The notes under the pieces were generated by a model, which saw only the letters and a program-made list of their open reading frames with translations, was not told where the DNA came from and ran no database searches. From an uncultured Desulfospira sp. (GTDB lineage: Bacteria > Desulfobacterota > Desulfobacteria > Desulfobacterales > Desulfobacteraceae), in contig OY760175.1 of assembly GCA_963663165.1 (NCBI GenBank), forward strand, positions 5,536,001 through 5,600,000: a DNA stretch of 64,000 nucleotides, in the 5' to 3' direction. Numbering within the stretch: the stretch's first letter is position 1; the number at the start of each line of letters is the position of its first letter. A program made the position numbers and the translations under genes. Below, in pieces: positions 2,854 to 56,323 of this stretch.

Positions 2854-3951
2854 TTGCCCATACAAAAAATTATAATGATGGTAATGGCCGTTTTTTTTGC
2901 CATTGGCGCCATAGACCACCTGCTGGACAATCGCCTGGGATTTGGAAAAGAATTTGAGCGGGCCTTTTCGTTAATGGGAACAATTGCCCTTAATATTCTG
3001 GGCCTGATATCCATCTCTCCGGTCATAGCCCGCATGTTAAAACCGGTTGTTGTTCCTTTATACCAGTCTTTCGGCGCTGACGCGGCCATGTTTGCACCGA
3101 CGTTTTTGTCCGTGGATTCCGGCGGGTACTCAATCGCCACACAACTTGCCGCGGATCCCCAGGTCGGTCTGTTTGCCGGTGCCGTCATTGCCGCTTTGTT
3201 TGGGGCAAACATGTCTTTTACCATTCCCGTGGCCATCAGTATCATTGAAAAAGAGGATCATAAATTTTTCAGTGTGGGCGTCATGTCCGGTTTTATTGTC
3301 ATTCCCTTTGGCGGGTTCATCGGCGGTCTTGCCTGCGGCCTTCCCGCCGGCGTGATTTTGATTAATCTGATGCCCGTGACGGTTGTGGCCGTTGCGGTGA
3401 TTATCGGGCTTATTTTTTTCCCTGAAAAAATGATAAAAATGTTCACCATCTTTGCCAAATTTATCCATATCATCATCATTTTCGGCCTGACGGCTGCGGT
3501 GATTGAGCAGATGACCGGTTTTGCCGTCATCAAGGGAATGAACCCGTTAGCGGCATCCATGAAAATTTTAGGGAACATAACGATCATCCTGGCCGGCACC
3601 ATGTCGTTTATTTATGGATTCATGAAAGTTTTTAAAACGCCTTTGGATAAAATCGCTGAATTGACCGGGATAACGGATTTATCTGTTTTGTCCATGCTGT
3701 TGTCCTTGGCCACCCTGATTCCGGGATTTGTCTATTTGAAAGATATGAACGACAAAGGCAAAATAATTTTTGGCGCCTTTGCGGCCACCACAGCCAATAT
3801 TTTCGGGGCTCACCTTGGGTTTATTTCAGCGGTAAGCCCTGAAATGGTCGCCCCCATGATTACCGCCAAAGTTGCTGCAGGCGTCGTCGCCCTGCCCATT
3901 GCCGCATTGCTTTACAAACGGATATTCCTCTCTAAAAAGGAAGGGCTGTAA
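2854..3951 (+). CDS. eutH: Ethanolamine utilization membrane protein EutH-like
   Basis: 365 aa hydrophobic; GAIDHLLDNRLGFGKEFE, D-GGY, FTIPVA, FGAHLGF motifs. Confidence 0.8.
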   Translation: MPIQKIIMMVMAVFFAIGAIDHLLDNRLGFGKEFERAFSLMGTIALNILGLISISPVIARMLKPVVVPLYQSFGADAAMFAPTFLSVDSGGYSIATQLAADPQVGLFAGAVIAALFGANMSFTIPVAISIIEKEDHKFFSVGVMSGFIVIPFGGFIGGLACGLPAGVILINLMPVTVVAVAVIIGLIFFPEKMIKMFTIFAKFIHIIIIFGLTAAVIEQMTGFAVIKGMNPLAASMKILGNITIILAGTMSFIYGFMKVFKTPLDKIAELTGITDLSVLSMLLSLATLIPGFVYLKDMNDKGKIIFGAFAATTANIFGAHLGFISAVSPEMVAPMITAKVAAGVVALPIAALLYKRIFLSKKEGL

Positions 3952-4065
3952 GTGGGGGGTTAAACTCAGCCGGGGAAAGGTCCTGTTTTCTTTACAAAAA
4001 TGGGGCCGCTAAGAGCGGTTTTTGTATACTATAGAAAATTTTAACATATTAAAAATAAGTGGTTG

Positions 4066-4099
4066 TAATGATCTGCCTGGTTCGACCTGCAGCGGATTG
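4066..4099 (-). repeat. Left arm (spacer/L'') of the terminal attC, cut at R'' by the recombinase-IS91 unit
   Basis: Plus strand GGTTCGACCTGCAGCGGATTG resembles the array attC arm GGTCGGCCTGCAGCGTTTTG; joined to TTCTGC at 6425 it restores an R'' box just after the brnA stop; no clear right arm. Confidence 0.6.
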
Positions 4100-4209
4100 T
4101 TGAACGAAGCCGCTACCGCGGCGGAAAAAGTCAAAGTTGTGTATACTCCGTTGGGGTTTTCCTGTGCAGGGCATCCCGAATATCAATTTAATTTAAGGAG
4201 GAGTATACC

Positions 4210-5113
4210 ATGAACGAATCCGAAGTAAACCGTTTTAACAAGCTCTATGAACGCCATTTGAAAACCCTGAAACTTCAGGGAAAGTCTGAAAAAACCATTG
4301 ATGCCTACTCCCGGGCCATTCGCCGGGTAAGAGACTATTTTGACTGTTGCCCTGACAAACTTAAACCAGAACAACTCGAAAATTATTTTGCTGACCTGGT
4401 CGAGTCCCATTCGTGGAGCACGGTTAAAATTGATCGTCTGGGACTTCAGCATTTCTGGAAATTCGTTTTAAAAAAGGAATGGAATTGGTTGAATATTGTC
4501 AAGCCGCCCAAAGTTAAAACCATCCCGGATATTTTGACTCCCGGCGAGGTGGAACATCTGATCGGCGCAACGCGTAAACTGCGCTACCGGGTTTTCCTGC
4601 TGACAAACTATTCAATGGGCCTGCGTCTGGCAGAGACACTGTCCTTGCAAGTGGGGGATATTGATTCGGTACGAAAACTTGTCCATATCCGGAGGGGAAA
4701 AGGCCATAAAGACCGGTTGGTCCCATTACCGGACCGTACCCTGATCGGACTGCGGGAACTATGGAAAAGACATCAACACCCCAGCCTTCTTTTCCCCAAT
4801 GCTAAAGGCTCACTGGAAACCATTCAAAAGGCCAAATCCCATATGGACCGGGGTGGTGTCCAAAATGCCATGAAGGCTGTGGTGGCCGATTGCGGCATAA
4901 AAAAAAGTCTCCATACACTCTTTGCGCCACAGCTTTGCAACTCACCTGCTTGAAAACGGCTTAAGCCTTCGCCACATCCAGGCCCTTCTCGGCCATGCCC
5001 GGCCTGAAACAACCGCCCGTTACGCCCATCTCACTGAGATCACGGAAAAGGACTGCAGGACAACCATTAACGAACTGGTCAACACCATTCATGTAGATTT
5101 TTGGAAGGTGTAA
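4210..5113 (+). CDS. Tyrosine recombinase split by a +1 frameshift at an A8 run (~4899-4906)
   Basis: SAM-like N-terminus ([11 protein letters not shown]), [30 protein letters not shown]...LLGH...TTARY lies in the next frame (4922..5113). Confidence 0.85.
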
Positions 5114-5115
5114 TT

Positions 5116-6159
5116 ATGCGACTTTCTCATATCATTGAAGAGTATTATGATGCATTCCAGACCCGTTACGGGGACAAGGCGTTGCCGGGGCAGATTAATG
5201 CCTTAAACGCCATGCTCAGTTGCCGCACACCAGATGCCGGACAGATTTATACGGCCTGCCCGGACTGCAATCATCTACAACAGCACCCTCTCTCCTGCGG
5301 TAACCGGCATTGCCCCCATTGCCAGAACCATGAAACAAGTCAATGGATCGACCGGCAACAAAATAAACTGCTGCCGGTCCAGTATTTCATGGTGACTTTT
5401 ACCTTGCCCTGTCAGTTCAGAGATGTGGCATATCTGAATCAACGGGCAGTTTATTCTCTGATGTTTTCATGTGTATCCGGCACTTTGAAAGATTTTGGGC
5501 TCAACCCCCGGCACCTTGGTGCTCAGATCGGTATGACCATGGTCCTTCACACCAATAGCAGAAAATTGGATTTTCATCCGCATATTCACGTAATTGTTCC
5601 AGGTGGCGGTGTTGATCCATCCAGACGGCAATGGAAAAAGAAAAAAGGCAAGTATTTGTTTAACCAGAAAGCCCTGGCCAAGGTTTTCCGGGCACGTTTC
5701 CTGGATGGATTGAACAAAAAAAATTTGCCGATTCCCAAAGGTGCTCGTCCCAAATGGGTTGTTGATTGTGAGAGGGTTGGAGCAGGTCTCTCTGCCCTGA
5801 AGTATCTGTCCAGGTATTTATACAGGGGAGTGATCAGCGAGCGTAATATTATTGCCAACCAGAACGGTCAGGTTACCTTCAGGTATATTGACGGCAAAAC
5901 CAAAAAAGTATGTACGCGAACCCTTAACGGCGAAGATTTCCTGCGCCTGATCCTGCTTCATGTATTGCCCCGGGGATTTCGCAGGGCAAGGGATTACGGT
6001 TTTCTTCATGGGAATGCCAAAAAACTGCTCTTTCTGGTACAGATGATTCTCCACGTACGGATTACGGCAATAGTGCGTCGGCCAAGGCCTGTGTTTAAAT
6101 GCCCCCATTGCGGGCAGCCTATGAAAATCCTGGGAATAAAACCTGCCGGTGCGGGATAG
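5116..6159 (+). CDS. IS91-family rolling-circle (Y2/HUH) transposase
   Basis: Zn-binding SCGNRHCPHC, VTFTLP, HUH motif FHPHIHVIVPGGG, YLSRYL, HVLPRGFRRARDYG. Confidence 0.92.
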   Translation: MRLSHIIEEYYDAFQTRYGDKALPGQINALNAMLSCRTPDAGQIYTACPDCNHLQQHPLSCGNRHCPHCQNHETSQWIDRQQNKLLPVQYFMVTFTLPCQFRDVAYLNQRAVYSLMFSCVSGTLKDFGLNPRHLGAQIGMTMVLHTNSRKLDFHPHIHVIVPGGGVDPSRRQWKKKKGKYLFNQKALAKVFRARFLDGLNKKNLPIPKGARPKWVVDCERVGAGLSALKYLSRYLYRGVISERNIIANQNGQVTFRYIDGKTKKVCTRTLNGEDFLRLILLHVLPRGFRRARDYGFLHGNAKKLLFLVQMILHVRITAIVRRPRPVFKCPHCGQPMKILGIKPAGAG

Positions 6160-6369
6160 GAAAAACAAAAGGTAGAAACCAAATCTCAATTTAACTGGAG
6201 GAGAGCAACGCTATGAAATAATCCGGCTTTTTTTAGAAAGCCCTGAAAAGGGCTATGCTACAGGTGCGCCTTATCTCCGATGGCCGAAAACCAAACTACT
6301 TCCAGCCGCTTAATCTCCAAAAAGATATTTTCATATATAGGGAAAGCCCGGTTCATTTTGGCCGGGCTT

Positions 6370-6430
6370 GTTCAACAATCGGATAAGATCGTGGTTTGTT
6401 CCTCACACGATCTATCCTTATTCGTTCTGC
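6370..6430 (+). repeat. Short attC-like hairpin at the element's right end, opposite in orientation to the array attCs
   Basis: GTTCAAC-AATCG-GATAAGATCGTG...CACGATCTATC-CTTATTC-GTTCTGC, with one unpaired base in the left L box. Confidence 0.65.
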
Positions 6431-6433
6431 TCA

Positions 6434-6700
6434 TTAGTACCGCATTTCCGAGTCGATACGTTCAGAAAGAAAAACCTTTAAAAGAGACTGATACGGAACA
6501 TCCTTTTTGTTTGCCAATACTTTCAAATCCTCAATCATGGATTCAGGCAACCGGATAGAAATTTTCCGAGTTGAAGGTTTTAGTTTCGAAAACACAACAT
6601 TCTCTGCATCAGACCAATCCATATAATCAGAAGAATCATTTTCTTGCCAAAATTTGCGTTCTTCGGCTTCACTGCTAAATTCAGGTATTTTCTTTTTCAT
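6434..6700 (-). CDS. BrnA/CopG-type antitoxin (cassette)
   Basis: IPEFSSEAEERKFW...ISIRLP...KDVPYQSLLK. Confidence 0.8.
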   Translation of the reverse strand: MKKKIPEFSSEAEERKFWQENDSSDYMDWSDAENVVFSKLKPSTRKISIRLPESMIEDLKVLANKKDVPYQSLLKVFLSERIDSEMRY

Positions 6701-6903
6701 CTTAGATACCTTTCCATTTCCGCATCGGTCATATCCCGAGCGGATATGATTCTTATTTTATCGTTTCGAATGGTGAAAACAGCAAAAAATAAACGATTCA
6801 TCTCAGTTCGACCAAGCACGTAATAGCGGTCTTCAATAATAGAATGGTGCTTATCATATTTGATTATAAGCGGTCTGTTGAAGAAAATTTGTTCACATTC
6901 CAA
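6697..6903 (-). pseudogene. BrnT-family toxin, 5' end deleted and fused to intron sequence
   Basis: ECEQIFFNRP...EDRYYVLGRT...IRIISARDM; sequence above ~6904 is group II intron, not toxin. Confidence 0.75.
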
Positions 6904-7362
6904 TACGGTTTCACCTGCCGAATGATCCCGGCGAAGATACGGGGTTTCCACGTTCCACACTATTGCCAATTAGTGGATGACTTAGGCCTGCCCTCTGCAC
7001 CGGCGGCGCAACATCTCACGCGGCAGTTAGGAAACCTGCATCCTGACCGCTCACCTTTTGGTCCAAGCTTACCAGCCTCTTTAGCTTGTTCTCCCTGACG
7101 GTACTTACGGAACATTCAACTACTTTGACCATATCATCCAAACCCTTGCCCTCACCCGGATTGAGGCTTCCAGGAGGGTATCTGCCTCACGGCTTCCACC
7201 CCTTCCACAGTTGCGGAATTCGGTACGTTGTCGGTTGGGCTTCACACCGTTGCCGGATGCACCGACCACCGCATGCCACCTAGGGTACCGGCAGGAGAAT
7301 GCCGGGTTTGGTCAGGACCGACTGGCCCGCCAAACAGCCAATAATGCGACTTCGTGTCGCAC
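6904..7362 (-). mobile_element. Group II intron 5' fragment (copy A)
   Basis: GTGCGACACGAAGTCGC 5' end at 7362; nearly identical to ~38953-39411. Confidence 0.85.
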
Positions 7363-29775: not shown

Positions 29776-30519
29776 AAAAAGGAAAAAATCGCAGATTTTA
29801 AGAGCATAACTTAGATCTCAATATTCTGTCGCTGGGGGATTTTGACCCGGCCACAGGTGGGGGATTTTAAAGTGGCCATCCGGGCTCACAAAGAAACACC
29901 TGCCCGGGTGTGTCTGTAGTCACACCCGCCGGACGTCAGCTCCCTTTCGGGCCGGGTAATGTCGATAGTCAATAGATCCATCTCAATCCGTATCCACTTC
30001 GTTACAAAATGGCATTTGCTTCTTCCTGCATCTTACTCCCGCACCTCCATCAATGTGCCTTGCGGTTTCACCTGCCGAATGATCCCGGCGAAGATACGGG
30101 GTTTCCACGTTCCACACTATTGCCGATTAGTGGATGACTTAGGCCTGCCCTCTGCACCGGCGGCGCAACATCTCACGCGGCAGTTAGGAAACCTGCAGCC
30201 TGACCGCTCACCTTTTGGTCCAAGCTTACCAGCCTCTTTAGCTTGTTCTCCCTGACGGTACTTACGGAACATTCAATTAATTTGACCATATCATCCAAAC
30301 CCTTGCCCTCACCCGGATTGAGGCTTCCAGGAGGGTATCCGCCTCACGGCTTCCACCCCTTCCGCAGCTGCGGAATTCGGTACGTTGTCGGTTGGGCTTC
30401 ACACCGTTGCCGGATGCACCGGTAACTGCATGCCACCTAGGGTACCGGCAGGAGAATGCCGGGTTTGGTCAGGACCGACTGGCCCGCCAAACAGCCAATA
30501 ATGCGACCTCGTGTCGCAC

Positions 30520-33588: not shown

Positions 33589-34498
33589 GCAGACACCCAA
33601 AAGTCCGCCCGGTTATGATCTGGATCAGATCCGCCGGGATTATCTGGACCATATGCTTAAAATCAAGGAAAGCTCTCCTTCTCAAACCTGTTGCAGGACC
33701 AAAATTATCAAAGCGTTTGACAGTTATCTGCAAACATCGGGAGTCTCACTGGTCAATATAAACATAGGGCATGTTGATGATTTTCTGGCAAGGTTCAATG
33801 CCCCATATGCAAAGAGTACCCAGGGGGTATACCGTTCCTGTTTTCGAGGCTTTTTGCACTACCTGTATAATGAACGGCATTTGATCCAACAGAATTTAGC
33901 CCCGCTTGTGACCGGTCCGCCAATGTTTGCTCAAGTCAAGCCTCCTAAATTTTTAAGACCCGGTGAAGTCCGTCAGTTATTTGATCATTTGCCCTGTGCA
34001 ACATCCAAAGAGCTTCGTGTCTATGCACAGGTTCACCTGGCTTATTATCTTGGATTGCGCCCCATTGAAATCAGCCGCCTTACTCTGGACGATATCTGTT
34101 TTGCCAAAGGACTGCTAAACCTGGAAAACACAAAAAATGCAAAGCCCCTTCAATTGCCCATTCCCGATGAAGTTATCAAAGCAATCACCGCTTATATCGT
34201 TGGAGGCAGGCCTAAAAGTCAGTCTCGCTCTCTTTTTTTAACCAGCCATTGCCCACCTTACAGAGCTGTAAGTGCCTGGCTCACCAGGCACGATTTAACA
34301 AAGGCGTTGCGGGCTGCCGGTCTTCCCGGTACAGGATATTGGCTGCGCCACACCTTTGCACAAAACATGCTGGAAGCAGGTGCCGGCATTTTTGAAATCA
34401 AAGAAATGATGGGGCATTCCATCATTGATTCCACAAAAGTATATCTAAGTATCCACAAGGAATTGATGCGCCGGGTGTTGTTCGATGAAACCGTTTAA
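33581..34498 (+). CDS. RIT tyrosine recombinase A
   Basis: LGLRPIE, LRHTFA, MGH...TKVY. Confidence 0.88.
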   Translation: MVEQTPKSPPGYDLDQIRRDYLDHMLKIKESSPSQTCCRTKIIKAFDSYLQTSGVSLVNINIGHVDDFLARFNAPYAKSTQGVYRSCFRGFLHYLYNERHLIQQNLAPLVTGPPMFAQVKPPKFLRPGEVRQLFDHLPCATSKELRVYAQVHLAYYLGLRPIEISRLTLDDICFAKGLLNLENTKNAKPLQLPIPDEVIKAITAYIVGGRPKSQSRSLFLTSHCPPYRAVSAWLTRHDLTKALRAAGLPGTGYWLRHTFAQNMLEAGAGIFEIKEMMGHSIIDSTKVYLSIHKELMRRVLFDETV

Positions 34499-35459
34499 AA
34501 GCTTTTTGGCCACAGAGATGGAAAACTTTATTGTTTACCGGCAAGGACTGGGATACAGTTGCCATATGCTCCGGTGGGCCTTGCTTACCTTTGACGATTT
34601 TTTAATGAGGCAGCCGGATCTCTCAGACATTTGGATGCCCCATTTTTATATCACCTTTAAAAATGAGATTGGCCTTGAGCCCTCCGGCGTAGCCAGCATT
34701 CTAAATGTAGTTCGAGGCTTTTTTGATTATCTGAAACGGCAGCGGATAAATCTTGATAACCCTTTGAAAGATGTGACCGCTCCGGCCCGGCGCACCTTCA
34801 TCCCCTTTATATTCTCACCGGAGCAGGTAGAAATGTTACTGGGGGTGGTATGCGGACGGATCCGGCAAACCCCTATGCGGTTCCTTAAAGATTACAGTGA
34901 ATATCTGGTGATCCTTCTGCTTGCCCGCTGTGGGCTGAGGATGAATGAACCCTTGCGCCTGAGATTGAAAAATTACCGGCCGGATGAAAAGACGATTTAC
35001 ATAGAGAAAACCAAGTTCAAAAAGGACCGTCTTATCCCTATTCCAAAATCAACTGCCATGCAGATTGACAACTATCTTTTAACCAGGGCCGCTTTAATTG
35101 AAAACGATATGAATCCCTACCTGTTCATGGGGATAGGGGAAAACGGCTTGAACGATAACCGTATTCGCTCTGTTTTTCACGATGCTGTGCGTCAAATCGG
35201 GATCCGCCGCCCAAGGAAAATTATCGGCGACACGACCTTTGGGAAGCCCACTCCGCACTGTTTACGGCACTCTTTTGCCATTAACACCTTGAAGGCAGCC
35301 ATTGCCCGGAAACAATCACCCCGGAATGTGCTGCCGGTGCTTGCCGGCTATATGGGTCATGTTGAGTATAAATACACCATGGAATATTTGAAAGCAGTTG
35401 ATGCTGAAAGCCGCGACAGCCTGTTCAAATTTACCACCGGCAGAAGGGATGAATCATGA
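34485..35459 (+). CDS. RIT tyrosine recombinase B
   Basis: CGLRMNE, TKFKKDR, HCLRHSFA, LAGYMGH...TMEY. Confidence 0.9.
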   Translation: MKPFKSFLATEMENFIVYRQGLGYSCHMLRWALLTFDDFLMRQPDLSDIWMPHFYITFKNEIGLEPSGVASILNVVRGFFDYLKRQRINLDNPLKDVTAPARRTFIPFIFSPEQVEMLLGVVCGRIRQTPMRFLKDYSEYLVILLLARCGLRMNEPLRLRLKNYRPDEKTIYIEKTKFKKDRLIPIPKSTAMQIDNYLLTRAALIENDMNPYLFMGIGENGLNDNRIRSVFHDAVRQIGIRRPRKIIGDTTFGKPTPHCLRHSFAINTLKAAIARKQSPRNVLPVLAGYMGHVEYKYTMEYLKAVDAESRDSLFKFTTGRRDES

Positions 35460-36475
35460 ACCTGACCCGTTGCGTTGTTCAATTTTTTGACCAATACCTG
35501 CCTTATGTCAAAGGGTGCCGCCCCAATACGATCAAAAGTTACCGGGATACCATGCGCTTTTTTTTACCGTTTGCTGCCGAATACCACAGCGTAAAGGTCA
35601 GTTCGCTCAATCTGGAACATATCACGGTAGAATTAATTTTGCAGTTTCTCAATGAGCTTGAATCCAAACGGTCCAACACGGCTAAAACCCGGAACCAGCG
35701 CCTGGCCGTTTTAAAGTCTTTTGCCAAAATGATCCGTTTTATTTATCCCGAGCAACAAAAACTGACCAATGCGATCCTTGATATTCCCCGGAAACGAAGC
35801 CAACACAAGTTGATCGGATTTTTGTATCCCCAGGAGATCAATCAAATCCTTAATGCGGTCCAACTTAAAAGAAAGGACGGGTTCCGAGATTATACCCTTC
35901 TGTATCTATTATATGATACCGGTGCCAGGGCAACGGAAATCGCTACCCTTGAGATGGATTATTTTGATTATGAAAATCAAACTCTGGCGATTCTTGGGAA
36001 GGGTAACCGATATCGACAAGTTCAGTTGCTTGGGAAAACAGTAGAGCTTATGCATCAGTATATTGAAGAACATCGCAATACGCCAATCCATCCGTTTAAA
36101 AAAAGGCTGTTCATCAACCAAAGAGGAACAAGCTTGACCCGCCACGGTATCAACCGGATCTGTAAAAACTACCTTGAACAGGCTTTACCGGCAAAGCGGA
36201 CAGCGACCATGCACCCCGTCCATAGCTTCCGTCATTCGTGTGCCGTTCGAATGCTCTCAGAGGATCGGCCTTTATCTGAAATTAAGAATCGCTTGGGGCA
36301 TTCTAATGTCAAATCCACAATGGTTTACTTAAAGCTTGATCTAGGCCAGAAGCGACATTTACAAGAGAACTTCATCCAGTTCACCAAACAGCACCTGAAA
36401 TCTGATCCGAAAATTGAGGAGTTGATCCAGTGGGAAAACAAGCAAAACGTTCTTGAGTGGCTGGATAGTCTATAG
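35456..36475 (+). CDS. RIT tyrosine recombinase C
   Basis: NTIKSYRD, TRNQRLA, TGARATE, HSFRHS, LGH...TMVY. Confidence 0.9.
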   Translation: MNLTRCVVQFFDQYLPYVKGCRPNTIKSYRDTMRFFLPFAAEYHSVKVSSLNLEHITVELILQFLNELESKRSNTAKTRNQRLAVLKSFAKMIRFIYPEQQKLTNAILDIPRKRSQHKLIGFLYPQEINQILNAVQLKRKDGFRDYTLLYLLYDTGARATEIATLEMDYFDYENQTLAILGKGNRYRQVQLLGKTVELMHQYIEEHRNTPIHPFKKRLFINQRGTSLTRHGINRICKNYLEQALPAKRTATMHPVHSFRHSCAVRMLSEDRPLSEIKNRLGHSNVKSTMVYLKLDLGQKRHLQENFIQFTKQHLKSDPKIEELIQWENKQNVLEWLDSL

Positions 36476-37100: not shown

Positions 37101-39411
37101 ATCGGGTAGGTCGGGGGCTTTACAGCCCCTTTCCCCCCTCAGAACCGTACGTGACAGTTTCCCGTCATACGGCTCAAGCATTTCTAAGGCTGAGCCTTGC
37201 GGGGCCGCCCGGCTGTTTTCTCTTGCCAATGCTGAAATTTACAGTTATTTCATTACATATTTTCTCGGCCGCTGTGACAGGGATCACCTTTGGTTTCACC
37301 CGTCTTGCCCGGAAGTATTGTTGATGTTCCGGGTCAAAAGGATTTGCATCGCTTTTGATTTTGATGTGCCGTTGGATATGTATGCTGTGCGCTTTGATGA
37401 GTTCGGATGTTCTCGGGTTGCCGTTTTTATCTTTGACCACCGTTGAGAACCGCCCCGGTTTTGAGCCCTTTGACCAGTACGTCTTTTTCAACCATTGGAT
37501 GCTTTTATTCCGGTGACGTCGTTTCACCCATTGCCACGCTTCATTCCATATGTACCCGTCAACATAGCTGAAAGTTTTTGCTGAGACAACATGTTTGTGA
37601 TAGTTCGCCCAACCCCTTATTTTCATGTTAAGATCATGAATCAGAGCCTCGGCTTTCGATCCCCGGTGCTTCCTGAACGTCTCGTGGATTTTATCCATGA
37701 AGGCCTGCACATTTTTCCTGGATGGTTTAATGAGCAGTTTGCCGTCATACTTACGAACGTTTTGGCCCAGAAAATCGAATCCCCGGTCAATTCGGGTAAT
37801 CAGGGTCTTTTCTTCAGACAGGGATAGATCCCGTTCCGAGAGAAATCTGATTATGGCCGGTTTGACCTTGTCTTCAAGAAGTTCCCGGGTTGCACCGGTA
37901 ATAATGAAATCATCAGCATACCGGATGACGTTGATTTTGGAACTGATGTCCTTACCGTTGCGTCTGTCCCTGACAGGGGCAACAGATCCGGCAGTCCCTT
38001 CAATGCCGTCCAGAACCATGTTGGCCAGTGTGGGAGAGGCAATGCCGCCTTGCGGTGTTCCCCGGCCTGTTGGAAAGAATTTACCGTCCTCCATAAACCC
38101 GGAAGCCAGCCATTTGGTAAGGATCATCTTATCCATAGGGATATGGTCGATCATCCAGTCATGGCTGATTTCATCAAAGCAGGCTTTAATATCCGCTTCA
38201 AGTATCCAGACCGGCGAGGTTTTCTTGGCCAGTGTATTAAAGCATTGGGATATGGCGTCCGCACATCGCCTGTATGACCTGAATCCGTATGAATTGTGGT
38301 CGGCCAGTGTTTCTGCTATCGGCTCCAATGCCAGTTTATACAATGCCTGAACAGCCCTGTCGATCATTGTGGGAATACTTAACGGACGTTTCTTGCCGTT
38401 CTTTTTGGGAATATAGATCCGCCTGAGCGGTGATGGCTGGTATCCTCTCCGTTTGAGGTTGCCTGCTGCCTGGAATTTCTGCCTGGCGGTTTTCCAGGTG
38501 ACGTTGTCGACACCCGGAGTGCGTTTCCCTTTATTGGAGGTCACGCGTTTTACAGCTAACAGCTTTGCCTGGTAAGAGTGGGTCAGAAGCCACTGGAGGG
38601 CCTTGGCCCGTCTGTATCTTCCTTCTTTCACAGCCTTTGCGATACGCATTTGCAGTCTTTTAACAGCTTCATAAATGGCTTTCCAATGAATGGACTTCCA
38701 ATTCCTGAAACTGCCGATGGGCGCACCAGCTGTTGCCGTCATTTGCCTTCCCATCTTCAAAGATTCTCCAGACTATCTCGCAAAGAAACACCTGCCCGGG
38801 TGTGCCTGTAGTCACACCCGCCGGACGTCAGCTCCCTTTCGGGCCGGATAATGTTGAAGGTCAGTAGATCCATCTCAATCCGTATCCACCTCATTACAAG
38901 ACGGCATTCGCTTCTTCCTGCATCTTATTCCCGCACCCCCATCAGTGTGCCTTGCGGTTTCACCTGCCGAATGTTCCCGGCGAAGATACGGGGTTTCCAC
39001 GTTCCGCATTATTGCCAATTAGTGGATGACTTAGGTCCGCCCTCTGCACCGGCGGCGCAACATCTCACGCGGCAGTTGAGAAACCTGCATCCTGACCGCT
39101 CACCTTTTGGTCCCAGCTTACCAGCCTCTTTAGCTTGTTCTCCCTGACGGTACTTACGGAACATTCAACTACTTTGACCATATCATCCAAACCCTTGCCC
39201 TCACCCGGAATGAGGCTTCCAGGAGGGTATCCGCCTCACGGCTTCCACCCCTTCCGCAGTTGCGGAATTCGGTACGTTGTCGGTTGGGCTTCACACCGTT
39301 GCCGGATGCACCGACCACCGCATGCCACCTAGGGTACCGGCAGGAGAATGCCGGGTTTGGTCAGGACCGACTGGCCCGCCAAACAGCCAATAATGCGACT
39401 TCGTGTCGCAC
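37101..39411 (-). mobile_element. Full-length group II intron (copy C)
   Basis: 5' GTGCG; D5 GAGCCGTATGACGGGAAACTGTCACGTACGGTTC; D6 ending CCTACCCGAT; RT ORF inside. Confidence 0.93.
37174..38760 (-). CDS. ltrA: Group II intron reverse transcriptase/maturase, no HNH domain
   Basis: RLQMRIAKA, TPGVD, GTPQGG, RYADDF, GFDFLG, IRGWANY. Confidence 0.95.
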   Translation of the reverse strand: MKMGRQMTATAGAPIGSFRNWKSIHWKAIYEAVKRLQMRIAKAVKEGRYRRAKALQWLLTHSYQAKLLAVKRVTSNKGKRTPGVDNVTWKTARQKFQAAGNLKRRGYQPSPLRRIYIPKKNGKKRPLSIPTMIDRAVQALYKLALEPIAETLADHNSYGFRSYRRCADAISQCFNTLAKKTSPVWILEADIKACFDEISHDWMIDHIPMDKMILTKWLASGFMEDGKFFPTGRGTPQGGIASPTLANMVLDGIEGTAGSVAPVRDRRNGKDISSKINVIRYADDFIITGATRELLEDKVKPAIIRFLSERDLSLSEEKTLITRIDRGFDFLGQNVRKYDGKLLIKPSRKNVQAFMDKIHETFRKHRGSKAEALIHDLNMKIRGWANYHKHVVSAKTFSYVDGYIWNEAWQWVKRRHRNKSIQWLKKTYWSKGSKPGRFSTVVKDKNGNPRTSELIKAHSIHIQRHIKIKSDANPFDPEHQQYFRARRVKPKVIPVTAAEKICNEITVNFSIGKRKQPGGPARLSLRNA

Positions 39412-40788: not shown

Positions 40789-41783
40789 ATCGGGTAGCCG
40801 GGGGTAGTTATCTACCCCAGGCCCCCTCAGAACCGTACGTGACAGTTTCCCGTCATACGGCTCAAGCATTTCTAAGGCTAAGCCTTGCGGGGCCGCCCGG
40901 TTGTTTTAGCAATAATGAAATTTACAGTTATTTCATAGCATATATCCTTGAGCATCTGCCCGGAAAGTATTTTTCTTTTTCCGGGTCAAAAGAGAACATC
41001 CTTTTGAAAGATGCCTCTGGCGTGTATGCTGTGTGCTACTTTAACAACCTTTGCGATACGCATCTACAGTCTTTTAACAGAATAAATCTGCAGATGGGCG
41101 CACCAGCTATTGCCGTCATTTGCTTTCCCATCTTCAAAGATTCTCCAGACTCTCTCGCAAAGAAACACCTGCCCGGGTGTGCCTGTAGCCACACCCGCCG
41201 GAGGTCAGCTCCCTTTCGGGCCGGATAATGTTGGGATGTTCTCCTCAATCCGTATCCACCTCATTACAAGATGGCCTTCGCTTTTTCCTGCATCTTACTC
41301 CCGCACCTCCATCAGTGTGCCTTACGGTTTCACCTGCCGAATACTCCCGGCGAAGATACGGGGTTTCCACGTTCCACACTATTGCCAATTAGTGGATGAC
41401 TTAGGCCTGCCCTCTGCACCGGCGGCGCAACATCTCCGTGCAGGCAGTTAGGAAACCGGCAGCCTGACCGCTCACCTTTTGGTCCAAGCTTACCAGCCTC
41501 TTTAGCTTGTTCTCCCTGACGGTACTTACGGAACATTCAATTAATTTGACCATATCATCCAAACCCTTGCCCTCACCCGGATTGAGGCTTCCAGGAGGGT
41601 ATCTGCCTCACAGCTTCCACCCCTTCCGCAGTTGCGGAATTCGGTACGTTGTCGGTTGGGCTTCACACCGTTGCCGGATGCACCGACAACCGCATGCCAC
41701 CTAGGGTACCGGCAGGAGAATGCCGGGTTTGGTCAGGACCGACTGGCCCGCCAAACAGCCAATAATGCGACTTCGTGTCGCAC
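40789..41783 (-). ncRNA. ORF-less group II intron (copy D, ~995 nt) with intact ends
   Basis: 5' GTGCG; D5 identical to copy C; different but pairing D6 ending CTACCCGAT; RT ORF deleted. Confidence 0.88.
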
Positions 41784-53436: not shown

Positions 53437-54346
53437 GCAGACACCCAAAAGTCCGCCCGGTTATGATCTGGATCAGATCCGCCGGGATTATCTGGACCAT
53501 ATGCTTAAAATCAAGGAAAGCTCTCCTTCTCAAACCTGTTGCAGGACCAAAATTATCAAAGCGTTTGACAGTTATCTGCAAACATCGGGAGTCTCACTGG
53601 TCAATATAAACATAGGGCATGTTGATGATTTTCTGGCAAGGTTCAATGCCCCATATGCAAAGAGTACCCAGGGGGTATACCGTTCCTGTTTTCGAGGCTT
53701 TTTGCACTACCTGTATAATGAACGGCATTTGATCCAACAGAATTTAGCCCCGCTTGTGACCGGTCCGCCAATGTTTGCTCAAGTCAAGCCTCCTAAATTT
53801 TTAAGACCCGGTGAAGTCCGTCAGTTATTTGATCATTTGCCCTGTGCAACATCCAAAGAGCTTCGTGTCTATGCACAGGTTCACCTGGCTTATTATCTTG
53901 GATTGCGCCCCATTGAAATCAGCCGCCTTACTCTGGACGATATCTGTTTTGCCAAAGGACTGCTAAACCTGGAAAACACAAAAAATGCAAAGCCCCTTCA
54001 ATTGCCCATTCCCGATGAAGTTATCAAAGCAATCACCGCTTATATCGTTGGAGGCAGGCCTAAAAGTCAGTCTCGCTCTCTTTTTTTAACCAGCCATTGC
54101 CCACCTTACAGAGCTGTAAGTGCCTGGCTCACCAGGCACGATTTAACAAAGGCGTTGCGGGCTGCCGGTCTTCCCGGTACAGGATATTGGCTGCGCCACA
54201 CCTTTGCACAAAACATGCTGGAAGCAGGTGCCGGCATTTTTGAAATCAAAGAAATGATGGGGCATTCCATCATTGATTCCACAAAAGTATATCTAAGTAT
54301 CCACAAGGAATTGATGCGCCGGGTGTTGTTCGATGAAACCGTTTAA
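53429..54346 (+). CDS. RIT tyrosine recombinase A
   Basis: Protein identical to copy 1. Confidence 0.88.
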   Translation: MVEQTPKSPPGYDLDQIRRDYLDHMLKIKESSPSQTCCRTKIIKAFDSYLQTSGVSLVNINIGHVDDFLARFNAPYAKSTQGVYRSCFRGFLHYLYNERHLIQQNLAPLVTGPPMFAQVKPPKFLRPGEVRQLFDHLPCATSKELRVYAQVHLAYYLGLRPIEISRLTLDDICFAKGLLNLENTKNAKPLQLPIPDEVIKAITAYIVGGRPKSQSRSLFLTSHCPPYRAVSAWLTRHDLTKALRAAGLPGTGYWLRHTFAQNMLEAGAGIFEIKEMMGHSIIDSTKVYLSIHKELMRRVLFDETV

Positions 54347-55307
54347 AAGCTTTTTGGCCACAGAGATGGAAAACTTTATTGTTTACCGGCAAGGACTGGG
54401 ATACAGTTGCCATATGCTCCGGTGGGCCTTGCTTACCTTTGACGATTTTTTAATGAGGCAGCCGGATCTCTCAGACATTTGGATGCCCCATTTTTATATC
54501 ACCTTTAAAAATGAGATTGGCCTTGAGCCCTCCGGCGTAGCCAGCATTCTAAATGTAGTTCGAGGCTTTTTTGATTATCTGAAACGGCAGCGGATAAATC
54601 TTGATAACCCTTTGAAAGATGTGACCGCTCCGGCCCGGCGCACCTTCATCCCCTTTATATTCTCACCGGAGCAGGTAGAAATGTTACTGGGGGTGGTATG
54701 CGGACGGATCCGGCAAACCCCTATGCGGTTCCTTAAAGATTACAGTGAATATCTGGTGATCCTTCTGCTTGCCCGCTGTGGGCTGAGGATGAATGAACCC
54801 TTGCGCCTGAGATTGAAAAATTACCGGCCGGATGAAAAGACGATTTACATAGAGAAAACCAAGTTCAAAAAGGACCGTCTTATCCCTATTCCAAAATCAA
54901 CTGCCATGCAGATTGACAACTATCTTTCAACCAGGGCCGCTTTAATTGAAAACGATATGAATCCCTACCTGTTCATGGGGATAGGGGAAAACGGCTTGAA
55001 CGATAACCGTATTCGCTCTGTTTTTCACGATGCTGTGCGTCAAATCGGGATCCGCCGCCCAAGGAAAATTATCGGCGACACGACCTTTGGGAAGCCCACT
55101 CCGCACTGTTTACGGCACTCTTTTGCCATTAACACCTTGAAGGCAGCCATTGCCCGGAAACAATCACCCCGGAATGTGCTGCCGGTGCTTGCCGGCTATA
55201 TGGGTCATGTTGAGTATAAATACACCATGGAATATTTGAAAGCAGTTGATGCTGAAAGCCGCGACAGCCTGTTCAAATTTACCACCGGCAGAAGGGATGA
55301 ATCATGA
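54333..55307 (+). CDS. RIT tyrosine recombinase B
   Basis: One substitution versus copy 1 (NYLST vs NYLLT). Confidence 0.9.
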   Translation: MKPFKSFLATEMENFIVYRQGLGYSCHMLRWALLTFDDFLMRQPDLSDIWMPHFYITFKNEIGLEPSGVASILNVVRGFFDYLKRQRINLDNPLKDVTAPARRTFIPFIFSPEQVEMLLGVVCGRIRQTPMRFLKDYSEYLVILLLARCGLRMNEPLRLRLKNYRPDEKTIYIEKTKFKKDRLIPIPKSTAMQIDNYLSTRAALIENDMNPYLFMGIGENGLNDNRIRSVFHDAVRQIGIRRPRKIIGDTTFGKPTPHCLRHSFAINTLKAAIARKQSPRNVLPVLAGYMGHVEYKYTMEYLKAVDAESRDSLFKFTTGRRDES

Positions 55308-56323
55308 ACCTGACCCGTTGCGTTGTTCAATTTTTTGACCAATACCTGCCTTATGTCAAAGGGTGCCGCCCCAATACGATCAAAAGTTACCGGGATACCA
55401 TGCGCTTTTTTTTACCGTTTGCTGCCGAATACCACAGCGTAAAGGTCAGTTCGCTCAATCTGGAACATATCACGGTAGAATTAATTTTGCAGTTTCTCAA
55501 TGAGCTTGAATCCAAACGGTCCAACACGGCTAAAACCCGGAACCAGCGCCTGGCCGTTTTAAAGTCTTTTGCCAAAATGATCCGTTTTATTTATCCCGAG
55601 CAACAAAAACTGACCAATGCGATCCTTGATATTCCCCGGAAACGAAGCCAACACAAGTTGATCGGATTTTTGTATCCCCAGGAGATCAATCAAATCCTTA
55701 ATGCGGTCCAACTTAAAAGAAAGGACGGGTTCCGAGATTATACCCTTCTGTATCTATTATATGATACCGGTGCCAGGGCAACGGAAATCGCTACCCTTGA
55801 GATGGATTATTTTGATTATGAAAATCAAACTCTGGCGATTCTTGGGAAGGGTAACCGATATCGACAAGTTCAGTTGCTTGGGAAAACAGTAGAGCTTATG
55901 CATCAGTATATTGAAGAACATCGCAATACGCCAATCCATCCGTTTAAAAAAAGGCTGTTCATCAACCAAAGAGGAACAAGCTTGACCCGCCACGGTATCA
56001 ACCGGATCTGTAAAAACTACCTTGAACAGGCTTTACCGGCAAAGCGGACAGCGACCATGCACCCCGTCCATAGCTTCCGTCATTCGTGTGCCGTTCGAAT
56101 GCTCTCAGAGGATCGGCCTTTATCTGAAATTAAGAATCGCTTGGGGCATTCTAATGTCAAATCCACAATGGTTTACTTAAAGCTTGATCTAGGCCAGAAG
56201 CGACATTTACAAGAGAACTTCATCCAGTTCACCAAACAGCACCTGAAATCTGATCCGAAAATTGAGGAGTTGATCCAGTGGGAAAACAAGCAAAACGTTC
56301 TTGAGTGGCTGGATAGTCTATAG
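55304..56323 (+). CDS. RIT tyrosine recombinase C
   Basis: Protein identical to copy 1. Confidence 0.9.
   Translation: MNLTRCVVQFFDQYLPYVKGCRPNTIKSYRDTMRFFLPFAAEYHSVKVSSLNLEHITVELILQFLNELESKRSNTAKTRNQRLAVLKSFAKMIRFIYPEQQKLTNAILDIPRKRSQHKLIGFLYPQEINQILNAVQLKRKDGFRDYTLLYLLYDTGARATEIATLEMDYFDYENQTLAILGKGNRYRQVQLLGKTVELMHQYIEEHRNTPIHPFKKRLFINQRGTSLTRHGINRICKNYLEQALPAKRTATMHPVHSFRHSCAVRMLSEDRPLSEIKNRLGHSNVKSTMVYLKLDLGQKRHLQENFIQFTKQHLKSDPKIEELIQWENKQNVLEWLDSL

What the first reader, a model, noticed from the sequence alone, without database searches (positions are those of the whole stretch)
4066..6434. Recombinase + rolling-circle transposase unit built like an integron cassette and inserted inverted into an attC R'' box
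Seen: the unit starts G|TTGAAC (4099) and ends in a 61-bp attC-like hairpin whose R'' (GTTCAAC, 6370) is the exact complement of that start, which is the hallmark of a cassette that once circularised. Removing 4100-6424 restores ...CCTGCAGCGGATT-GTTCTGC-TCATTA, an array-type attC arm directly after the brnA stop, with no target duplication. Known: some IS91-family members carry a tyrosine recombinase; HUH transposases make ssDNA circles; attC recombines as a folded single strand. Inference: this is a self-mobilising cassette mimic in which rolling-circle ssDNA folds its own attC and recombines at a G|TT of resident attC sites, using its own recombinase or a host IntI. The recombinase lacks the IntI-specific insertion, so either route would be unusual.
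Basis: partly seen in the sequence, partly recalled or inferred. Interest (0 to 1): 0.88.

Follow-up and report, generated by a model that had tools for sequence, protein, structure and literature searches.

The report
attC-homing IS91 element with recombinase
This 2.3-kb stretch is one copy of a widespread jumping gene (a rolling-circle transposase plus its own recombinase) that lands backwards at one exact spot in the hairpin sites of integron gene-cassette arrays and whose joined ends imitate such a site.

Summary
Window 4100-6424 carries a Xer-like tyrosine recombinase gene and an IS91 (HUH-Y2) transposase gene. It is bounded by GTT on both sides and splits the R'' box of the last attC of a cassette array. 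It lies antisense to the cassettes and leaves no target duplication.

It is not a one-off. All 80 related loci examined are from other genomes, mostly Desulfobacterota. They show the same ends: left GTTGAACGAAGCC, right a 12-bp bulged hairpin followed by TTCGTT. Pairing between the left end and an inner GTTCAAC box is kept by a compensatory change. The target consensus is TT-GTT-AKG. By home-made scans, 21 of 44 sites score as attC hairpins, always in one orientation. A 45%-identical relative sits at the same base of the aadA1 attC in an E. coli plasmid integron, and plasmid R100 shows the empty site.

Cassette boundaries in this genome lie at the other attC box, so canonical IntI insertion does not explain the position. 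Which enzyme inserts the element remains inferred.

New here: 40 of 45 scorable relatives need a -1 frameshift at an A8/A9 run to make the full recombinase. The window copy is one base short.

This scan's notes record the same element class on other DNA 22 times. I found no description in the papers searched.

The parts
3954..4099 (-). Left (larger) part of the terminal, degenerate attC of the cassette array. The plus strand here is the attC bottom strand. It follows directly after the eutH stop.
   Evidence: The covariance model R1, built from 13 window attCs, hits G000:5539954-5540105, which is window 3954-4105. The arm GGTTCGACCTGCAGCGGATTG matches the array arm consensus. The same-genus genome G001 has an intact attC at this place after eutH.
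4099..4101 (+). Left junction GTT (crossover somewhere within it)
   Evidence: GTT precedes GAACGAAGCC in nearly all relatives. It is ATT in L023 and L075.
4100..6424 (+).
4109..4122 (+). Left-end mini hairpin GCCGC-TACC-GCGGC, conserved in the family
   Evidence: The sequence is conserved, but no covariation was seen.
4210..4953 (+). Tyrosine recombinase gene, 0-frame ORF of 247 aa. It has the SAM-like N-terminal domain and most of the catalytic domain, but no box II His or Tyr.
   Evidence: Pfam PF13495 and PF00589.
4899..4906 (+). A8 run, the family's frameshift site. In this copy it is one base short, so the downstream frame is +1 rather than -1.
   Evidence: The run length is confirmed by contigs of three public runs.
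4907..5113 (+). Recombinase C-terminal part in the other frame ([18 protein letters not shown]...GH...RYAH, with the catalytic Tyr)
   Evidence: PF00589 profile positions 132-169. Frames.
5116..6159 (+). IS91-family HUH-Y2 transposase, 347 aa, apparently intact (HPHIHV; YLSRYLY; Zn-binding N-terminus)
   Evidence: NF033538 at 389 bits against a cut-off of 125. Pfam PF04986 and PF14319. Translation.
6364..6376 (+). Conserved inner box GGGCTTGTTCAAC. Its last 7 nt (6370-6376) are complementary to the left end GTTGAAC, forming an R''-like box.
   Evidence: 37 of 41 distinct elements are fully complementary, including 10 with the double change GTCCAAC/GTTGGAC.
6381..6417 (+). Terminal imperfect hairpin (L-box-like), a 12-bp stem with one extra A on the 5' arm
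   Evidence: 98.6% of cells are paired, 5 of 12 pairs show compensatory changes, and 0 of 500 shuffles reach the observed values.
6424..6430 (+). Right junction GTT plus CTGC. This is the complement of the array attC R'' box GCAGAAC.
6434..6969 (-). brnA-brnT toxin-antitoxin cassette whose attC is the one interrupted
   Evidence: Pfam PF12441 and PF04365.

Best explanation
Window 4100-6424 is one copy of a widespread two-gene IS91-family insertion sequence. The copy is probably crippled in recombinase expression.

The element encodes a Xer-like tyrosine recombinase and an HUH-Y2 rolling-circle transposase. In most relatives the full-length recombinase is made only after a -1 frameshift at an A AAA AAG run.

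The element homes, in one orientation, to the GTT of a 5'-TTGTT(A/G)-3' site. That site is typically the R'' box at the foot of an integron attC hairpin. The element therefore ends up antisense to the cassettes, just downstream of a cassette ORF, without target duplication.

Its own ends, once joined, form an attC-like site:
- a 7-bp R box (left end paired with an inner box);
- an unpaired spacer;
- a bulged 12-bp L-box hairpin.

Most likely mechanism (inferred):
1. The HUH transposase nicks at the hairpin end downstream of its gene, the oriIS side in IS91 terms.
2. It peels off and circularises the strand antisense to the genes.
3. The junction folds into the attC-like hairpin.
4. The element's own recombinase carries out an IntI/XerCD-like single-strand exchange at AA|C with the target. 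Replication completes the insertion.

Host IntI is not the agent.

Shown: the element's identity, its exact ends, the fold with covariation, the target rule, the orientation rule, and an empty versus occupied site.

Inferred: the single-stranded circle, which strand moves, and which enzyme joins it to the target.
For: Identity:
- Transposase: NF033538 at 389 bits, plus Pfam Y2_Tnp and Zn_Tnp_IS91.
- Recombinase: best matches are XerA, XerD, XerC and IntI models, all below their cut-offs. It is 32% identical to the host IntI, with a 31-aa gap at the IntI-specific segment.

Ends:
- Identical or near-identical copies within seven other genomes stop being alike at the same bases.
- The 15-mer end motifs recur across the 80 loci, down to about 50% transposase identity.
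- They also occur in Photobacterium and E. coli plasmids at 45% identity.

Fold:
- Hairpin: 98.6% of cells paired, 5 of 12 pairs compensatory, 0 of 500 shuffles as good, and 22-51% paired in slid controls.
- R box: 27 distinct elements have GTTCAAC/GTTGAAC, 10 have GTCCAAC/GTTGGAC and 2 are mismatched.

Target:
- Logo TT-GTT-A-K-G from 56 left and 64 right unique flanks.
- A long AAC...GTT hairpin at the junction in 15 of 44 sites, against 6 of 300 random GTT sites of this genome.
- The attC model R1 ends exactly at the left junction in 10 loci. The union of the two scans is 21 of the 44 scanned sites.
- All 27 R1 hits in 19 loci are on the transposase strand.
- A minus-strand ORF ends within 80 nt of the right junction in 40 of 56 sites.

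Empty site:
- R100 reads ...GAACGAATTGTTAGACATTATTTGCC.
- The E. coli IncC plasmid reads ...GAATTG|TTGAAC...element...CCTTATTTG|TTAGAC.

Not IntI:
- In this genome, cassette crossovers lie at the plus-strand 5' box.
- The introduction of PMC5027507 says IntI cleaves the AAC of R' on the bottom strand. It also says top-strand (R'') recombination inverts a cassette and is normally avoided.

Recombinase importance:
- The gene is kept in all full copies.
- 40 of 45 scorable distinct elements share the -1 site, a transposase-style dosage control.

Geometry:
- Passages of PMC5737581 and PMC13393415 place oriIS downstream and terIS upstream of the IS91/ISCR transposase gene. This matches the hairpin end here.
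Against: - No circle junction or excised site was seen in the four runs laid. These were contigs only, so the result is uninformative.
- Canonical IS91 transposes with the HUH enzyme alone, into GTTC/CTTG, which resembles GTT(N). HUH transposases such as IS608 TnpA also use bulged hairpins and base-paired guide sequences (recalled knowledge). So the fold and the covariation do not discriminate between the two enzymes.
- About half of the sites (23 of 44) are not recognisably attC. Several lie inside ORFs. A plain sequence target, TTGTT, could therefore explain the attC bias.
- All 5 multi-copy host genomes searched carry IntI, so independence from IntI is not shown.
- Variant triplets fit best a cut after GTT rather than G|TT. 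These are a right-end GAT shared by L029 and L055 at different sites, and a left-end ATT in L023 and L075. The exact cassette-style crossover is therefore unproven.
- This particular copy needs a +1 or -2 shift for its recombinase, and the genome holds only one full copy and one remnant. It may be inactive.
Confidence: 0.5

Rival explanations
1. Plain IS91-type rolling-circle transposition carried out by the HUH-Y2 transposase alone.
- The terminal hairpin is its oriIS.
- The left-end/inner-box pairing serves to recognise the termination site, as a guide sequence does.
- GTT(N) next to the hairpin end is this clade's version of the IS91 GTTC/CTTG target.
- attC R'' boxes are hit simply because they read TTGTTRRRY.
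- The recombinase is accessory, for example in regulation, multimer resolution or end binding.
For: - IS91 family membership.
- The window's own right flank reads GTTC.
- PMC5737581 (passage) says one-ended transposition needs only oriIS and CTTG/GTTC.
- oriIS lies downstream of the gene (PMC5737581 and PMC13393415 passages).
- Many non-attC targets still carry TTGTT.
- Partial tandem copies always retain the right (ori) end: L028, L031, L059, L070.
Against: - It does not explain why a recombinase with a conserved, dosage-limiting frameshift is kept in every active lineage.
- It does not explain why the junction reproduces the full R box-spacer-L box layout of a tyrosine-recombinase hairpin substrate.
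- The targets are GTTA/G/C/T, not GTTC/CTTG.
Confidence: 0.33
2. The unit is a genuine integron cassette moved by the host integron integrase. Its attC-like end is a real attC. The inverted R'' position results from IntI recombining the top strand of the resident attC.
For: - The unit has cassette-like ends with R''/R' complementarity.
- IntI is present in this genome and in 5 of 5 multi-copy host genomes searched.
- PMC9229058 (passage) describes ISShvi3 next to an attC as 'a new gene cassette structure'.
- PMC12772301 (passages) raises passive shuffling of ISCR28, which has attC sites at its end.
Against: - The orientation is the wrong one consistently, not occasionally: 27 of 27 R1 hits, 40 of 56 neighbouring ORFs, and the aadA1 case.
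- IntI strongly avoids the top strand (PMC5027507 introduction).
- Copies also sit in non-attC sites and inside ORFs.
- Multi-copy bursts of identical copies occur, for example four 100% identical copies in one genome. This looks like an insertion sequence rather than a cassette.
- None was seen in the canonical cassette position in the loci examined.
Confidence: 0.07
3. A dead relic. The structure is real, but this copy no longer moves, and its position at the array end is a fossil of one old event.
For: - The recombinase slip site is one base short. This is confirmed in three runs' contigs.
- The genome holds only one full copy and one truncated copy, with no other ends.
Against: - This is compatible with the best explanation for the family, not a rival to it.
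- The transposase ORF and both ends are intact.
- Transcriptional slippage on an A8 run could still give some full-length protein (inference).
Confidence: 0.5

Closest known systems
IS91 family insertion sequences (IS91, IS801, IS1294; ISCR relatives). In particular the two-gene members with an upstream tyrosine recombinase, such as ISShvi3. That ISfinder lists such members (ISShvi3, ISAzo26, ISSod25, ISWz1...) is recalled and not from a call. PMC9229058 names ISShvi3 as IS91-like.
   Same: - HUH-Y2 transposase with a Zn-binding N-terminus.
- Two unlike ends with secondary structure.
- The functional hairpin end lies downstream of the transposase gene.
- No terminal inverted repeats and no target duplication.
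- A short T-rich target abuts that end. The window's own is GTTC.
   Different: - The target is TTGTT(N), preferentially the R'' box of attC hairpins, in one orientation.
- The joined ends form an R box/spacer/L box hairpin like an attC.
- A Xer-like recombinase is made through a conserved -1 frameshift.
- I found none of these three points in the papers searched. ISfinder/TnPedia and subscription journals could not be read.
Integron gene cassettes and their attC sites
   Same: - 7-bp RYYYAAC/GTTRRRY boxes.
- An unpaired spacer of 5-7 nt.
- An imperfect L stem with an extrahelical base on the R''/L'' arm of the strand carrying the genes' complement.
- Crossover within the conserved GTT/AAC.
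- No duplication.
- The first bases of the unit complement its own R''.
   Different: - Two genes, 2.3 kb, self-encoded enzymes.
- It sits at R'' and inverted, whereas cassettes join at R' in the array orientation.
- It also occurs outside attC sites.
- It forms multi-copy families.
Other attC-targeting mobile elements: the IS1111-attC group (IS110 family) and group IIC-attC introns
   Same: - Orientation-specific homing to integron attC sites.
- Group IIC-attC introns are likewise antisense to the cassettes (PMC9229058 passage).
- That they insert after TTGTT is recalled, not tested.
   Different: - Unrelated enzymes: a DEDD transposase guided by an RNA, or a ribozyme with reverse transcriptase.
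- Neither carries an attC-like site of its own.
CTX-phi type integration (an HUH Rep makes single strands; host XerCD integrates a folded single-stranded hairpin)
   Same: The proposed division of labour is the same. An HUH enzyme supplies the single strand, a Xer-type tyrosine recombinase exchanges one strand of a folded hairpin, and replication resolves it. PMC5027507 names XerCD as the only tyrosine recombinases besides IntI that use single-stranded substrates.
   Different: This is an analogy only. Here both enzymes are element-encoded, the element is an insertion sequence, and nothing has been tested.

Membership tests
IS91 family | HUH-Y2 transposase with a Zn-binding N-terminal domain | tested here: met
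   NF033538 at 389 bits (cut-off 125). PF04986 E=1.5e-46 and PF14319 E=1.6e-30. The motifs HPHIHV and YLSRYLY are visible.
IS91 family | No terminal inverted repeats and no target-site duplication | tested here: met
   - The restored site equals the array attC arm.
- The R100 empty site holds a single GTT, against GTT on both sides of the E. coli plasmid copy.
- Unequal triplets in L023, L075, L029 and L055 argue against a 3-bp duplication.
IS91 family | Structured oriIS end downstream of the transposase gene; terIS upstream | tested here: met
   A conserved covarying hairpin lies 222-258 nt after the stop codon. The geometry is as in the passages of PMC5737581 and PMC13393415. Function as an origin was not tested.
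IS91 family | Target tetranucleotide GTTC or CTTG abutting the oriIS end | tested here: inconclusive
   The window has GTTC and L002 has GTTG. Across the family the site is GTT plus A (36), G (13), C (11) or T (4) of 64. This is a related but different specificity.
Integron gene cassette / attC | R''/R' boxes RYYYAAC / GTTRRRY that pair | tested here: met
   GTTCAAC (6370-6376) pairs with G|TTGAAC (4099-4105). 37 of 41 distinct elements are fully complementary, with one compensatory variant class.
Integron gene cassette / attC | Imperfect L box with extrahelical base(s) and an unpaired central spacer | tested here: met
   A 12-bp stem with one extra A on the 5' arm of the gene strand, which is the 3' arm of the opposite strand. 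The spacers are 4-6 and 6 nt.
Integron gene cassette / attC | Inserted at R' of the preceding site, in the same orientation as the array | tested here: not met
   The junction is in R'' and antisense. The same holds in the relatives and in the aadA1 attC.
Integron gene cassette / attC | Mobilised by an integron integrase | not testable with these tools
   IntI is present in the host. The geometry argues against it (PMC5027507).
Integron integrase (IntI) - for the element's recombinase | IntI-specific additional segment between patches II and III, with a score above the family cut-off | tested here: not met
   TIGR02249 at 141 bits in two stretches against a cut-off of 265. There is a 31-residue gap against the host IntI at that segment.

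The most novel reading that the evidence does not exclude
An autonomous 'anti-cassette'. The HUH transposase peels off a single-stranded circle, and the circle's joined ends fold into a private attC mimic. The element's own frameshift-limited Xer-like recombinase then performs an IntI-style single-strand exchange, but with the R'' (top-strand) AAC of resident attC sites. The element thus parasitises integron arrays in the one orientation from which IntI cannot cut it out as a cassette. This would be a third tyrosine-recombinase system working on folded single strands (after IntI and XerCD/CTX), and a hybrid of two transposition chemistries in one insertion sequence.
Probability: 0.4. Interest if true: 0.85.

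Novelty: new variant of a known kind. Interest (0 to 1): 0.72.

Why it matters
Integron arrays are the main gene-capture system of many bacteria, including resistance plasmids. Only two kinds of mobile element are known to home to their attC sites. A third, widespread kind would add several things.

- It carries two different DNA-breaking enzymes and a mimic of the attC site itself. That offers a tractable system for asking how folded single strands are recognised by recombinases other than IntI and XerCD.
- It could explain what the long-unexplained recombinase of two-gene IS91 elements is for.
- It matters for array annotation. Its end can be called as an attC and so create false 'cassettes'.
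- It matters for array dynamics. It splits an attC, places outward-facing genes antisense to the cassettes, and can seed rearrangements. Here one copy is fused to a group II intron fragment at the far end of the main integron.
- One relative already sits in the aadA1 attC of a class 1 integron on an E. coli IncC plasmid.

Tried and rejected
- **Energy scan with controls from the same loci.** A first energy-only attC scan gave a weak contrast: 14 of 47 sites fell below the control 5th percentile. The controls were taken from the same loci and themselves contain attC arrays. I replaced it with an outer-helix count and random GTT sites of this genome as controls. Both scans demand an exact AAC...GTT closure and miss obvious attCs (window, L019, L039, L067, L084). 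The figure of 21 of 44 is therefore a lower bound from home-made criteria.
- **Public runs.** No RNA holder was listed. All 21 runs are kept as contigs. Laying four of them gave no circle junction and no empty site. One weak joint (4315 to 6319, side 21, one contig) was disregarded. This result is uninformative for or against circles and expression.
- **IntI absence test.** All 5 multi-copy host genomes have IntI, so the test could not separate the hypotheses.
- **Replication-strand bias.** The origin lies near 3.98 Mb. Both copies in this genome lie where the plus strand (the attC bottom strand) is the lagging-strand template.
- **3-bp (GTT) target duplication.** Rejected because of the unequal triplets in L023, L075, L029 and L055 and the single GTT in the R100 empty site.
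Rejected: all multi-copy families run on to TTCGTT.
- **My own first guess that the arrays read on the plus strand,** with the unit in canonical cassette orientation. Rejected.
- **Distant YR+IS91 pairs** (Sinorhizobium and Caballeronia plasmids, 35-38% identity). They keep the left-end mini hairpin, but I could not recognise the attC-like right end. I did not define their ends.
- **Literature.** Seven searches found no description of the target rule, the attC-like junction or the frameshift. ISfinder/TnPedia, subscription journals and bioRxiv supplements were not available.
Full report
**1. What is at the coordinates**

Window 4100-6424 holds two plus-strand genes.

- The first is a tyrosine recombinase. 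Pfam gives Phage_int_SAM_4 plus Phage_integrase. It is split into a 247-aa ORF (4210-4953) and a C-terminal piece in another frame (to 5113).
- The second is an intact 347-aa IS91-family HUH-Y2 transposase at 5116-6159. NF033538 scores 389 bits against a cut-off of 125. PF04986 and PF14319 also match. The motifs HPHIHV and YLSRYLY are visible.
- To the left lies eutH (2854-3951). To the right, on the minus strand, lie brnA and brnT.

**2. The surroundings are an integron-type cassette array, and its polarity can be settled**

The window carries at least 13 long (about 125-nt) attC repeats. RNAalifold finds a 20-pair stem, 6 pairs of which show compensatory changes. A covariance model built from them (R1) finds 55 sites in the genome, in three arrays. 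One array ends next to a true integron integrase, which scores 456 bits on TIGR02249 against a cut-off of 265.

Four observations agree on polarity:

- intI lies to the right of the same-oriented repeats.
- Cassette ORFs are almost all on the minus strand and fill the spacers.
- The unpaired extra bases lie on the 3' arm of the plus strand.
- Two copies of one cassette in different places are 100% identical from the AA|C of their left repeat to the AA|C of the next repeat. The next repeat's body is only about 85% alike.

From the introduction of PMC5027507: IntI cleaves between A and C of the AAC in R' on the bottom strand. The extrahelical bases lie on the L'' arm. Recombination at the R'' AAC of the top strand inverts a cassette.

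So here the plus strand is the attC bottom strand, the cassettes read on the minus strand, and IntI crossovers are at the plus-strand 5' box.

The unit's junction is at the other box. On the minus strand the order is: brnA stop, then GCAGAA|C (R''), then the unit, then the rest of the attC (R1 hit at window 3954-4105).

I first thought otherwise.

In the same-genus genome G001, eutH is followed by an intact attC ending ...GCGTTTTGTTGGCC. This is the conserved outer end of the array. The window's interrupted attC is the array's last one.

**3. A second copy**

L002 lies 13 kb from intI, at the far end of the main integron's array. It is 97% identical to window 5316-6429 and is in the same orientation. 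It diverges right after ...CTTATTCGTT, 10 nt from the stop of a minus-strand gene. Its 5' part is deleted and fused to a group II intron fragment. No other ends occur in the genome.

**4. The family**

One scan of 185,579 species' genomes with the transposase returned 80 loci. Most are Desulfobacterota MAGs. Others are Gammaproteobacteria, Omnitrophota, Spirochaetes, Lentisphaerota and Calditrichota.

- Within seven genomes, multiple copies at 96-100% identity stop being alike at the same bases, giving elements of about 2.23-2.31 kb.
- Across the loci the ends are nearly invariant. The left end is N|GTTGAACGAAGCCGC plus a mini hairpin. The right end is GGGCTTGTTCAAC, 4-6 nt, GGATAAGATCGTGG, a loop, CACGATCTATCC, then TTATTCGTT|N.
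- Several short contigs begin or end exactly at these bases.
- On 49 distinct right ends, the 12-pair hairpin is paired in 98.6% of cells. Five pairs show changes on both sides (21 cells). No shuffle of 500 reaches these values, and slid controls pair in 22-51%.
- The inner 7-mer and the left-end 7-mer are fully complementary in 37 of 41 distinct elements: 27 GTTCAAC/GTTGAAC and 10 GTCCAAC/GTTGGAC. Two have ATT at the left and two are mismatched.
- The 10 double changes may descend from one event. They show that pairing is kept, not how often it was re-selected.

**5. The target rule**

- From 56 unique left and 64 unique right flanks, the consensus is T(-11)..A(-8)..G(-5)..TT | GTT | A, G/T, G. 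This reads as the complement of an attC R'' box with its following AA.
- A home-made scan looked for an AAC...GTT-closed outer helix of at least 14 pairs. It is positive for 15 of 44 sites, against 6 of 300 random GTT sites of this genome outside the arrays.
- R1, trained only on this genome's attCs, ends exactly at the left junction in 10 loci.
- Within the 44 scanned sites, the union of the two scans is 21 of 44. L072 is an R1-positive outside that set. Both scans miss visibly attC-like sites, so this is a lower bound.
- All 27 R1 hits, in 19 loci, are on the transposase strand.
- In 40 of 56 unique right flanks, a minus-strand ORF of at least 60 aa ends within 80 nt of the junction. In 10 a plus-strand ORF starts there. 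In 6 neither occurs.
- The remainder includes clear non-attC sites that still read TTGTT. Examples are four copies in one Desulfobacula MAG and three of four in a Desulfatiglandales MAG. Some lie inside ORFs.

**6. An occupied and an empty site in a textbook attC**

tblastn against 72,556 plasmids found relatives at 45-47% identity in Photobacterium, Salinivibrio and E. coli, each with an adjacent integrase gene.

In E. coli IncC plasmid NZ_LT985243.1 the element lies between aadA1 and qacEdelta1 of a class 1 integron, antisense to the cassettes. Its junctions are ...GGCTTGAACGAATTG|TTGAACGAAGCC... and ...CCTATCCTTATTTG|TTAGACATTATTTGCC.

Plasmid R100 shows the same attC uninterrupted...GGCTTGAACGAATTGTTAGACATTATTTGCC, with a single GTT. 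Only 1 of 72,556 records holds the whole element. 3,193 records match in all, nearly all through the flanks.

This is the R'' box (GTCTAA|C on the gene strand) of the aadA1 attC. The Photobacterium plasmid copy has the same ends.

**7. Where exactly is the cut?**

GTT flanks both sides, so G|TT, GTT| and |GTT all restore the same empty site.

A 3-bp duplication is unlikely. R100 has one GTT, and four elements have unequal triplets: left ATT in L023 and L075, and right GAT in L029 and L055. L029 and L055 share GAT at two different sites. That is most simply an element-borne change, so it favours a cut after GTT. This rests on two cases, and I leave the cut position open.

**8. The recombinase**

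A naturally unbroken relative (L023, 301 aa) scores best on the XerA, XerD, XerC and IntI models, all below their cut-offs. It aligns to the host IntI at 32% identity, with a 31-residue gap where IntI has its specific segment. It is a Xer-like enzyme, not an IntI.

A new observation concerns its reading frame. Of 53 distinct elements, 45 could be scored.

- In 40 of them the upstream frame reads ...ECGIKKK and the box II part ([16 protein letters not shown]...) lies in the -1 frame. The switch is at ATT/ATA AAA AAA AAG, the classic A AAA AAG heptamer.
- Two are in frame (A7).
- Two need +1: the window and L054.

Without the shift, a protein of about 251 aa lacking the catalytic His and Tyr is made. 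This is the arrangement by which the IS1 and IS3 families limit transposase production (established knowledge).

The window's run (4899-4906) is one base shorter than in its nearest pattern-mates. Contigs of three public runs agree with it, while a roughly 90% relative in a fourth run has the extra A. This copy probably makes little or no full-length recombinase.

The gammaproteobacterial plasmid copies have an unbroken gene.

**9. How it most likely works**

Shown: the identity, ends, fold, target and orientation, and that cassette crossovers in this genome use the other box.

From papers: oriIS lies downstream and terIS upstream of IS91/ISCR transposase genes, and one-ended transposition needs oriIS plus CTTG/GTTC (passages of PMC5737581 and PMC13393415).

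An HUH enzyme stays on the 5' end it creates. So the strand that leaves would start at the hairpin end and be antisense to the genes. On that strand the joined ends read GTTCAA|C, a 7-nt spacer, the stem, the stem with one extra T, a 5-nt spacer, GTTGAAC. The AAC is in the 5' box and the extra base is on the 3' arm. By the rules quoted from PMC5027507, this is the layout of a recombinogenic attC bottom strand.

I therefore favour the following route: the HUH enzyme makes the single-stranded circle, and the element's recombinase exchanges one strand at AAC with the target. I put this at about 0.45-0.5.

The main rival, at about 0.33, is that the HUH enzyme does everything and the pairing serves end recognition. 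The sequence evidence cannot separate the two. IntI as the agent is unlikely (about 0.07) because the 'wrong' orientation is the rule, and because non-attC sites and bursts of identical copies occur.

**10. Comparison with what is known, and novelty**

Membership in the IS91 family is met on the enzyme, the absence of duplication and the end geometry. The tetranucleotide rule is only approximated. As a cassette it fails the position and orientation test.

Hints in print:
- attC sites called at the end of ISCR28 (PMC12772301, passages).

Seven searches found no description of the homing rule, the attC-like junction or the frameshift. ISfinder/TnPedia and subscription journals could not be consulted.

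This scan's own notebook lists 22 earlier findings of the same element class in at least 19 other genomes. Those are unchecked AI notes. They agree with what I tested here, and I saw them only after my analysis of the family.

**Verdict**

The finding is a real feature, well observed. It is a new variant of a known kind. This copy is probably inactive.

Noticed in passing
window 7148-7306, 30305-30463, 39197-39355, 41569-41727 (D1-D4); 37101-37177, 40789-40865 (D5/6), all minus strand: There are four group II intron 5' parts and two D5/6 domains (Rfam RF02012 and RF00029). Each intron starts GTGCGAC six nt after the G|TT of an attC R' box. They are on the same strand as the cassette ORFs. Published IIC-attC introns are antisense to cassettes (PMC9229058 passage). 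The copy next to brnT is cut short and overlaps the annotated brnT start.
   Followed up: partly
window 4899-4906 and the same place in L016-L092: A conserved -1 frameshift site (A AAA AAG) lies inside the recombinase gene of 40 of 45 scorable relatives. The 0-frame product of about 251 aa lacks the catalytic residues. Whether the slippage is ribosomal or transcriptional is unknown.
   Followed up: partly
window about 33935-36331 and 53783-56179; eight places in the genome: Three adjacent tyrosine-recombinase genes recur as a unit at eight genomic places, two of them inside this array region. They look like 'recombinase in trio' elements. This was not examined.
   Followed up: no
L115 (NZ_LT985243.1 8747-14772), L116 (R100): A 45%-identical relative of the element interrupts the aadA1 attC of a class 1 integron on an E. 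coli IncC plasmid, between aadA1 and qacEdelta1. It is the only one of 72,556 plasmid records with that element. A 254-bp piece of its right end is 95% identical to a Shewanella sp. ANA-3 plasmid.
   Followed up: partly
L028 1853-1872, L031 5305-5312, L059 5289-5326, L070 5301-5463: Short tandem repeats of the element's right end only (19, 7, 37 and 162 nt). Each ends in TTCGTT and follows directly after a full copy. L071 has a 12-nt repeat at the left junction. These may be aborted or reiterated initiation at the hairpin end.
   Followed up: no
window 6418-6600 in runs X1 and X6: Contigs at 10-15 times the depth of the element carry a brnA region about 96% alike. It is preceded by a different hairpin end (...CACGGTTACTAATCC-TTATTCGTT). 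A diverged member may sit at the homologous site in a related, more abundant organism.
   Followed up: no
window 4000-4082; G000 4910504-4910590, 2027717-2027807, 3828214-3828266: The middle of the degenerate terminal attC holds an 85-nt module with a terminator-like hairpin (GGCCGCTAAGAGCGG plus a T run). It recurs at three other places in the genome outside the arrays.
   Followed up: no
G000 5594608-5595292 vs 5602927-5603612; 5593816-5594732 vs 1917798-1918717: Identical cassettes are present twice, within one array and between arrays 3.7 Mb apart. This shows recent cassette copying. The three arrays share one attC family, but only one has an intI.
   Followed up: partly
L117, L118 (Sinorhizobium and Caballeronia plasmids): Recombinase+IS91 pairs at 35-38% transposase identity keep the left-end GAACGAA-CCGC...GCGG mini hairpin. 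I could not recognise an attC-like right end in them. The attC mimic may be limited to one clade of the two-gene elements.
   Followed up: no
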